Assembly (NCBI RefSeq): GCF_003334405.1
Contig: NZ_QOWM01000073.1
From: Escherichia coli
GTDB lineage: Bacteria > Pseudomonadota > Gammaproteobacteria > Enterobacterales > Enterobacteriaceae
DNA length: 273 nucleotides
Direction: 5' to 3' (one strand)
Both the position numbers and the translations under genes were made by a program. The notes beneath the pieces are model-generated. The model was not told where the DNA came from. It searched no databases and saw only the letters and a list, made by a program, of their open reading frames with translations. This document shows positions 1 to 273 of the stretch, in pieces (the stretch's first letter is position 1; the number at the start of each line of letters is the position of its first letter).

Positions 1-88
1 TGCGGTCCGTCTTCTCCGTCAGCCTGCCGTATTCATCGTGGCGGTAGACATAGTGCGCATCCTCCGCGATGCGGTTAACCACCCGTGC
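1..88 (-). CDS. Rhs-family YD-repeat core, downstream segment in a frame offset by one nucleotide from the upstream segment; continues beyond position 1
   Basis: Reverse-complement frame whose codons include plus 74-76 (AAC, Asn) translates to ARVVNRIAEDAHYVYRHDEYGRLTEKTDR. It is closed on its 5' side by TGA (complement of 89-91). The HDEYGRLTEKTD motif is classic Rhs core. No ATG in this frame within the window; a GTG (complement of 80-82) exists but I see no Shine-Dalgarno-like sequence upstream of it, so independent initiation is unsupported. Confidence 0.7.
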
Positions 89-228
89 TCATCATACTGC
101 CACTGCTCTGCCGGGTCGCCGTTCACCGTCCGGTGCGTGATGCGGTCCGACGCATCGTAGTGCCAGAGGGTGATAAGCCCCTCATCTTCACTCTGCGTGA
201 GTTTTCCGGTCAGGTCATAATGATAACG
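11..228 (-). repeat. Tandem YD-repeat coding units (protein-level periodic repeat of the Rhs shell), about 60 nt period
   Basis: Asp codons of the successive YD/HD dipeptides lie at reverse-complement positions 58-60, 118-120, 181-183 and 237-239 (spacings 60, 63 and 56 nt; the last is not a multiple of 3 because of the frame switch). Short DNA-level echoes of the repeat are also visible, e.g. TGCGGTCCG at 1-9 and 141-149, and GATGCGG at 68-74 and 139-145. Confidence 0.6.
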
Positions 229-273
229 TTGCGTCCGCCCGTCAAAGCCGCCCTGCTGTACCAGCCGGTCCAG
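19..273 (-). CDS. Rhs-family YD-repeat core protein, upstream (N-proximal) segment; 5' end lies beyond position 273; Rhs-like through about position 73, then 17 aberrant codons and a TGA stop (complement of 19-21)
   Basis: Reverse-complement frame starting at plus 273 is open for 84 codons and translates to LDRLVQQGGFDGRTQRYHYDLTGKLTQSEDEGLITLWHYDASDRITHRTVNGDPAEQWQYDEHGWLT, then ASRRMRTMSTATMNTAG and stop. Repeated Y/W-x-Y-D-x-x-(G/D)-(R/K)-(L/I)-T motifs at about 20-codon spacing (plus 193-228, 133-168, 73-105) are the YD-repeat signature. Paralog cannot be assigned from 273 nt. Confidence 0.8.
   Translation of the reverse strand: MDRLVQQGGFDGRTQRYHYDLTGKLTQSEDEGLITLWHYDASDRITHRTVNGDPAEQWQYDEHGWLTASRRMRTMSTATMNTAG
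73..80. other. Perfect 8-bp palindrome GGTTAACC (contains an HpaI recognition sequence GTTAAC) located exactly at the point where the Rhs reading frame switches
   Basis: Read directly: plus 73-80 = GGTTAACC, which is its own reverse complement. The last Rhs-like codon of the upstream frame (ACC, Thr, complement of 73-75) and the first Rhs-like codon of the downstream frame (AAC, Asn, complement of 74-76) overlap within it. Confidence 0.9.

What the first reader, a model, noticed from the sequence alone, without database searches (positions are those of the whole stretch)
1..273. Window lies in the conserved YD-repeat shell of an Rhs polymorphic-toxin gene
Translation shows successive YD-repeat units (RYHYDLTGKL, LWHYDASDRI, QWQYDEHGWL, YRHDEYGRLTEKTD). 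In the Rhs family these repeats build the shell that encloses a variable C-terminal toxin, and the genes sit with cognate immunity genes and often with T6SS components (VgrG/PAAR). The variable toxin tip and immunity gene, where the real diversity resides, would lie beyond position 1 on the minus strand and are not in this window.
Basis: partly seen in the sequence, partly recalled or inferred. Interest (0 to 1): 0.45.

Follow-up and report, generated by a model that had tools for sequence, protein, structure and literature searches.

The report
Deletion scar in dead Rhs gene
The window is ordinary E. coli Rhs toxin "shell" sequence, but it spans the scar of a 622-base internal deletion that shifts the reading frame, so it comes from a dead copy of the gene.

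Summary
The minus strand does encode Rhs/YD-repeat core sequence: NCBIfam RHS_core local E 7.6e-41 and 6.2e-11, Pfam RHS_repeat 2.2e-4.

The four YD units are not successive and not in one frame. In intact E. coli genes the window aligns at 100% identity as two pieces 622 bp apart. These are Rhs nt 1993-2193 and 2811-2887, joined at a 5-bp microhomology TAACC (window 73-77). The deletion removes about 207 residues of shell, shifts the frame and gives a TGA at window 19-21.

The junction occurs in 1 of 5,426 complete E. coli genomes: strain C1, at the rhsE locus, where it is annotated as a frameshifted, incomplete pseudogene. In C1 the same gene is also split by an 18.2-kb Tn5393-like resistance transposon. 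The junction also occurs on a stand-alone 229-nt contig of an independent draft assembly.

The window's ends fit a complete k=77 assembly contig. A 119-nt copy-specific stretch is flanked by 77 nt shared with the rhsD paralogue.

In C1 the gene is preceded by vgrG. The PIQVIDPMGL core end, a DUF6973 toxin tip and the ydcD immunity gene follow it intact.

Verdict: a known family and an ordinary pseudogene allele, of low interest.

The parts
73..273 (-). Left (5') piece of the Rhs core: nt 1993-2193 of the intact 4224-nt gene, aa 665-731. It carries three YD units in minus frame 0.
   Evidence: 100% identical to L001 6001-6201 inside the intact 'RHS element core protein' CDS. RHS_core model positions 669-737, E 7.6e-41. 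Pfam RHS_repeat E 2.2e-4.
1..77 (-). Right (3') piece of the Rhs core: nt 2811-2887 of the intact gene, aa 937-963. It carries the fourth YD unit (YRHDEYGRLTEKTD) in minus frame 2.
   Evidence: 100% identical to L001 6819-6895. RHS_core model positions 941-965, E 6.2e-11. An identical 77-mer is also present in C1 rhsD and K-12 rhsE.
73..77 (-). Deletion junction: the 5-bp microhomology TAACC (GGTTA on the + strand) shared by both breakpoints. 622 bp of the intact gene are missing here, which is not a multiple of 3, so the frame shifts.
   Evidence: The prefix match of 201 nt and suffix match of 77 nt overlap by 5 nt. The flanks of the two breakpoints are otherwise unrelated, 23/85 identical.
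19..21 (-). Premature stop codon TGA. It ends the shifted reading frame after 17 out-of-frame residues (ASRRMRTMSTATMNTAG).
   Evidence: Translations.
78..196 (-). Copy-specific stretch of 119 nt. It is bounded by the junction on one side and by the first base that differs from the rhsD paralogue on the other. With 77 nt of paralogue-shared sequence on each side (window 1-77 and 197-273) it makes the 273-nt contig.
   Evidence: C1 rhsD is identical to minus-strand positions 1-77 and 197-273 of the window, and differs at positions 78 and 196. The independent 229-nt contig L004 equals minus-strand positions 23-251, i.e. 119 + 2x55.
80..82 (-). GTG that mechanically opens a 472-aa ORF (L002 9014-10432). 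The ORF runs through the rest of the core, the PIQVIDPMGL motif and the DUF6973 toxin tip. No evidence that it is used.
   Evidence: ORF list. No good Shine-Dalgarno sequence upstream on reading the sequence.

Best explanation
The window is the scar of a 622-bp internal deletion in the beta-shell (YD-repeat core) region of the vgrG-linked Rhs toxin gene at the E. coli rhsE locus (yncG-yncH-vgrG-rhs-ydcD-yncO-ISAs1-ydcC-pptA).

Shown:
- The deletion joins Rhs nt 2193 to nt 2811 at a 5-bp microhomology (TAACC).
- It removes about 207 residues of the shell and shifts the frame.
- Translation stops 17 codons later, so this copy cannot make a closed Rhs container carrying its toxin.
- In the one complete genome with this allele (strain C1) the same gene is also split near its 5' end by an 18.2-kb Tn5393-like multiresistance transposon.
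- The 3' part of the gene and the ydcD immunity gene remain intact in C1.

Inferred:
- The deletion arose by microhomology-mediated illegitimate recombination or replication slippage.
- The 273-nt length is an assembly effect. The window is a whole k=77 de Bruijn contig, made of a 119-nt copy-specific stretch plus 77 nt on each side shared with another Rhs paralogue (rhsD).
For: Two-piece match. The window matches 2,471 genomes over at least 80% of its length, and in all 30 records listed it does so at 100% identity as two pieces spanning about 895 bp inside annotated RHS core genes. The RHS_core profile positions jump from 737 to 941 between the two frames.

Loss of function. Frame shift and stop.

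Distribution of the junction. A 41-mer across the junction is found in only 1 of 5,426 complete E. coli genomes, strain C1. The whole window matches there exactly, at L002 8823-9095. It lies in a CDS annotated 'frameshifted; incomplete; missing N-terminus'.

Independent occurrence. The junction peptide P0001 sits on the 229-nt contig NLLK01000130.1 of GCA_002228565.1. That contig is identical to minus-strand positions 23-251 of the window.

Contig-boundary arithmetic. It was predicted in advance (note) and then confirmed on C1 rhsD.

Transposon. Terminal inverted repeats and a 5-bp TATCC target duplication.

Intact allele. RHS_core 2766.9 bits against a 2000-bit cut-off, and YdcD_fam for the downstream gene. 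Homology to solved Rhs containers: Tse5 8cp6 at 3e-123, and 7q97.

Literature. Rhs pseudogenes and relics are common across E. coli strains (PMC2935791).
Against: The source genome of the window is unknown. It may or may not also carry the transposon lesion seen in C1.

The deletion mechanism is inferred only from the 5-bp microhomology.

Megablast with a 41-mer would miss junction alleles that carry a nearby SNP, so '1 of 5,426' is a lower bound.

Raw reads were not available to confirm the junction directly.
Confidence: 0.9

Rival explanations
1. The window is a continuous piece of an intact, functional Rhs shell. This is the first reader's reading, and the frame change would then be only a sequencing error of one base.
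For: All four peptides are true Rhs core sequence. Single-base indel errors are common in some assemblies.
Against: The discontinuity is a 622-bp gap relative to intact genes, not a one-base indel. The profile positions jump by 204. The same junction is present in a complete genome and in an independent draft.
Confidence: 0.01
2. The junction is an assembly chimera: a false join between two parts of the repetitive Rhs gene family, with no such molecule in the cell.
For: Rhs paralogues break short-read assemblies into small contigs. The window and L004 are stand-alone contigs of 273 and 229 nt. The junction is absent from the metagenome, species-representative and plasmid collections.
Against: The breakpoints share only 5 bp, far too little for a k=55 or k=77 graph to join falsely. 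The same junction appears in three separate assemblies, apparently built with different k, including a closed chromosome. The contig ends fall exactly where real branch points are expected.
Confidence: 0.04
3. The deletion allele is functional in a new way. The GTG at the junction starts a 472-aa C-terminal fragment (partial shell, autoproteolysis motif, DUF6973 toxin) that is expressed with YdcD. It would act as an orphan-like toxin/immunity module or as a recombination reservoir.
For: The ORF L002 9014-10432 is open and 99.9% identical to the intact gene, and ydcD is intact. Silent dissociated rhs tips beside a main gene are described in the literature (PMC2935791).
Against: The ORF list is purely mechanical, and no recognisable ribosome-binding site precedes the GTG. 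The fragment lacks the N-terminal region that mounts Rhs on VgrG and more than half of the shell, and vgrG is separated from it by 18 kb of transposon. The allele is rare.
Confidence: 0.04

Closest known systems
Intact E. coli 'RHS element core protein' at the rhsE locus (e.g. WP_001547367.1, strain 720632; NCBIfam NF041261 RHS_core)
   Same: 100% nucleotide identity over both pieces of the window. The locus is the same (vgrG upstream; ydcD, yncO, ISAs1 and pptA downstream).
   Different: The intact gene has 622 more bases between the two pieces and a continuous 1407-codon frame. The window allele is frame-shifted and truncated.
E. coli K-12 rhsE (b1456), the annotated pseudogene at the same locus
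   Same: Same chromosomal locus and same downstream ydcD. It is also a dead copy, and it contains the identical right-hand 77-mer.
   Different: K-12 rhsE is dead through a different, independent lesion. It has lost vgrG and roughly the first 2.2 kb of the gene, so it lacks the window's copy-specific left stretch. It has no 622-bp internal deletion.
Structurally solved T6SS Rhs containers (Tse5 8cp6, P. protegens RhsA 7q97, Tse15 8uy4, S. bongori Rhs 8qjb; PMC8636562, PMC8765631, bioRxiv 10.1101/2024.02.26.582050)
   Same: The intact allele aligns with these beta-cocoon cores across residues about 290-1072, which includes the window and the deleted part. The C-terminal aspartyl-protease/PxxxxDPxGL region also matches.
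   Different: Those are complete, closed containers. Here about 207 shell residues are deleted and the frame is lost. The toxin tip (DUF6973) is uncharacterised.
Dissociated/orphan rhs C-terminal fragments (Jackson et al. 2009, PMC2935791)
   Same: A partial core plus a full tip and an immunity gene remain downstream of the lesion, without an obvious start. Such fragments often carry frameshifts.
   Different: Orphans arise by C-terminal displacement next to a live main gene. Here the remnant arose from an internal deletion, plus a transposon insertion, in the main gene itself.

Membership tests
Rhs / YD-repeat polymorphic toxin (Pfam PF05593, TIGR01643, NCBIfam NF041261) | YD-repeat units matching the family profiles | tested here: met
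   Pfam RHS_repeat E 2.2e-4. TIGR01643 18.5 bits against a 15.8-bit cut-off. RHS_core local matches at E 7.6e-41 and 6.2e-11.
Rhs / YD-repeat polymorphic toxin | Whole-protein match to the RHS_core equivalog above its curated cut-off (2000 bits) | tested here: not met
   The window fragments score 139.9 and 40.9 bits. Only the intact allele from another strain reaches 2766.9 bits. The failure is expected for a 273-nt fragment, and the deletion allele also cannot encode the whole core.
Rhs / YD-repeat polymorphic toxin | Rhs-associated core ending in PxxxxDPxGL, followed by a variable C-terminal toxin domain | tested here: met
   Not in the window. Present downstream at the locus: PIQVIDPMGL at aa 1249-1258 of the intact protein and in the C1 remnant ORF. 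TIGR03696 E 9.4e-24. The tip matches Pfam DUF6973 at E 7.3e-12. Toxic activity was not tested.
Rhs / YD-repeat polymorphic toxin | Small cognate immunity gene immediately downstream | tested here: met
   ydcD overlaps the rhs stop in L001, C1 and K-12. YdcD_fam E 4.3e-64. The immunity function is inferred from position only.
T6SS-delivered Rhs effector | Genetic linkage to vgrG/PAAR | tested here: met
   vgrG lies directly upstream of the gene in strain 720632 and in C1. In C1 an 18.2-kb transposon now separates vgrG and the 5' 881 nt from the rest of the gene.
Functional Rhs toxin gene (as opposed to pseudogene) | One uninterrupted reading frame from the N-terminal domain through the shell to the toxin | tested here: not met
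   A 622-bp deletion shifts the frame and gives a TGA at window 19-21. RefSeq flags the C1 gene as 'frameshifted; incomplete'.

The most novel reading that the evidence does not exclude
The deletion is not mere decay. It would create, at the junction GTG (window 80-82), a 472-aa stand-alone C-terminal Rhs fragment carrying the self-cleavage motif and the DUF6973 toxin. This fragment would be expressed together with YdcD and retained in a lineage, either as an internal toxin-immunity (addiction-like) module or as a donor for toxin-tip swapping with the live rhsD paralogue.
Probability: 0.03. Interest if true: 0.3.

Novelty: already known. Interest (0 to 1): 0.08.

Why it matters
Biologically it matters little. 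Rhs cores are among the best-known repeated genes of E. coli, and dead copies are common. This allele is already in RefSeq and flagged as a pseudogene.

The practical lesson concerns the scan. A tiny window from a repeated gene family can be a whole assembly contig whose ends are set by paralogue branch points. A change of frame between recognisable motifs can hide a large deletion rather than a one-base error.

The C1 locus also gives a clean example of a chromosomal multiresistance transposon landing inside a T6SS effector gene.

Tried and rejected
1. Exact scans for the junction found nothing in the species-representative genomes, JGI metagenome contigs or PLSDB plasmids. The allele is therefore rare and is not on plasmids.

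2. An Rfam scan of both strands at E<=1 gave no hit. No RNA element is present.

3. The + strand ORFs (40 and 23 aa) are antisense to rhs and have no support. Rejected.

4. An exact look-up of the window's own 84-aa partial product found it absent from the protein collection. The source assembly could not be identified.

5. The literature search for rhsE/ydcD was mostly noise.

6. Repeat-mediated, in-register recombination between YD units was considered as the cause of the deletion. It was rejected because the breakpoint flanks are unrelated beyond 5 bp (23/85 identical) and the deletion is out of frame.

7. Programmed frameshifting was considered and rejected. The discontinuity is a 622-bp gap, not a slippery site.

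8. Locus L006 could not be read by the Python sandbox. The paralogue comparison was done with the DNA search and DNA alignment instead.

Full report
**What the sequence shows**

The minus strand carries recognisable Rhs core sequence, but in two frames.

- Frame 0 reads LDRLVQQGGFDGRTQRYHYDLTGKLTQSEDEGLITLWHYDASDRITHRTVNGDPAEQWQYDEHGWLT. It then continues as unrelated residues (ASRRMRTMSTATMNTAG) to a TGA at window 19-21.
- Frame 0 matches Pfam RHS_repeat at E 2.2e-4 and scores 18.5 bits on TIGR01643, above the 15.8-bit cut-off.
- Frame 0 matches NCBIfam RHS_core positions 669-737 at E 7.6e-41. Frame 2 matches positions 941-965 at E 6.2e-11.

The family assignment is therefore sound. The profile coordinates nevertheless jump by about 204 positions inside a 273-nt window. 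The + strand holds only short antisense ORFs, and there is no Rfam match.

**The discontinuity is a 622-bp deletion**

- Against 5,426 complete E. coli genomes, the window matches 3,724 genomes. In 2,471 of them one place covers at least 80% of it.
- In all 30 records listed, the match is 100% identical but falls in two pieces spanning about 895 bp inside annotated 'RHS element core protein' genes.
- In strain 720632 (L001; intact CDS 4009-8232, 1407 aa) the pieces are L001 6001-6201 and 6819-6895. They overlap by 5 bp (TAACC; window 73-77).
- 622 bp are missing, which is not a multiple of three.
- The two breakpoints share nothing else: 23 of 85 flanking positions are identical. The event looks like microhomology-mediated illegitimate deletion, not in-register recombination between YD units. 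This mechanism is inferred.
- The deleted segment is aa 732-937, which is shell. The intact protein aligns with solved Rhs containers across residues about 290-1072 (Tse5 8cp6 at E 3e-123, and 7q97).

**Where the allele occurs**

- A 41-mer that can match only across the junction is found in a single complete genome. This is E. coli strain C1 (NZ_CP195942.1), from wastewater in Panama.
- The whole window is present there exactly, at L002 8823-9095. It lies inside a CDS that RefSeq flags 'frameshifted; incomplete; missing N-terminus'.
- The locus is yncG-yncH-vgrG-rhs-ydcD-yncO-ISAs1-ydcC-pptA. This is the K-12 rhsE locus.
- K-12 rhsE is itself an independently 5'-truncated pseudogene. It keeps the right-hand 77-mer but lacks the left stretch.
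- The junction is absent from the species-representative genomes, JGI metagenome contigs and plasmids.
- A protein search with the junction peptide found P0001. This 76-aa 'RHS repeat protein, partial' sits on the stand-alone 229-nt contig NLLK01000130.1 of draft assembly GCA_002228565.1.
- That contig equals minus-strand positions 23-251 of the window exactly.
- The junction therefore recurs in independent assemblies. It is very unlikely to be a chimera, because 5 bp of shared sequence cannot mislead a k>=55 assembly graph.

**Why the window is 273 bases long**

The window is 22 nt longer than L004 at each end. I predicted that both are whole de Bruijn contigs, built with k=55 and k=77. Each would consist of one copy-specific stretch plus k bases of paralogue-shared sequence on each side.

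The test was the second Rhs gene of strain C1, rhsD (L006 17554-21834).

- rhsD is identical to minus-strand positions 1-77 of the window and first differs at position 78 (G versus A).
- rhsD is identical to positions 197-273 but is preceded by GGCCGGA instead of GGGTGGT.
- Hence 119 + 2x77 = 273 and 119 + 2x55 = 229.

The window is most likely an entire contig of a short-read draft of a C1-like strain.

**State of the gene in strain C1**

- vgrG and the first 881 nt of rhs are intact.
- They are followed by an 18,223-bp insertion that carries aph(6)-Id, aph(3'')-Ib, Tn10-type tet(B), Tn3 with blaTEM-1 and ISKpn26.
- The insertion has terminal inverted repeats of about 80 bp (GGGGTCGTTTGCGGGAG...) and a 5-bp TATCC target duplication at Rhs nt 876-880. 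From memory these ends resemble Tn5393; that identification was not tested here.
- The gene then resumes and runs to the 622-bp deletion.
- Downstream of the deletion the sequence is 99.9% identical to the intact allele and open to the natural stop. It includes PIQVIDPMGL, a C-terminal domain matching Pfam DUF6973 at E 7.3e-12, and the overlapping ydcD gene (YdcD_fam, E 4.3e-64).
- Both lesions look recent: the target duplication is intact and there is no further decay.
- A mechanical ORF of 472 aa starts at a GTG right at the junction, but it has no convincing ribosome-binding site and no support.

**Interpretation**

Shown:
- The window is Rhs core.
- It spans a frame-shifting 622-bp deletion.
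- The allele is rare, recurs in independent assemblies and is annotated as a pseudogene.

Inferred:
- The deletion arose by slippage or illegitimate recombination at TAACC.
- This copy can make neither a closed container nor a delivered toxin.
- The retained ydcD may still give immunity against kin that carry the live toxin.

Rhs pseudogenes and relics are frequent in E. coli (PMC2935791). The shell/container model comes from published structures (PMC8636562, PMC8765631, bioRxiv 10.1101/2024.02.26.582050).

**Verdict**

The claim of a conserved, continuous shell segment is not. This is a known family and a known kind of decay, and it is already annotated in RefSeq. Interest is low.

Noticed in passing
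L003 14271-32493 (NZ_CP195942.1 about 1599271-1617493), upstream of the window's gene: An 18,223-bp composite multiresistance element is inserted in the 5' part of the same rhs gene at nt 876-880. It carries strA/strB, Tn10-type tet(B), Tn3 with blaTEM-1 and ISKpn26. It has terminal inverted repeats of about 80 bp (Tn5393-like, from memory) and an intact 5-bp TATCC target duplication.
   Followed up: partly
window 1-77 and 197-273; L004 1-229; L006 19546-19622 and 20364-20440: The window's ends coincide with paralogue branch points: identity with rhsD stops exactly 77 nt in from each end. An independent draft contig shows the same pattern with 55 nt. The window is therefore probably a complete k=77 assembly contig rather than a slice of a longer sequence.
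   Followed up: yes
L002 9014-10432 (GTG at window 80-82, minus strand): The deletion leaves an open 472-aa frame. It starts at a GTG on the junction and runs through the core end (PIQVIDPMGL) and the toxin tip. No ribosome-binding site is evident, and expression is unknown.
   Followed up: partly
L001 7783-8229 (aa 1259-1407 of the intact protein) and L001 8216-8698: The toxin tip of this Rhs lineage matches only Pfam DUF6973 (E 7.3e-12), so its activity is uncharacterised. The overlapping downstream gene is ydcD (YdcD family), presumably the immunity protein.
   Followed up: partly
L002 about 8279-8661 (Rhs nt 1448-1830), upstream of the window: All 9 differences between the C1 fragment and the strain 720632 allele cluster in a 383-bp patch, while the 1417 bp downstream of the deletion have only 1. 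This may be a gene-conversion patch from a paralogue.
   Followed up: no
L007 5891-7939 (K-12 rhsE, b1456): The same locus in K-12 is dead through a different lesion: loss of vgrG and of about the first 2.2 kb of rhs. This locus has therefore been inactivated independently at least twice.
   Followed up: partly
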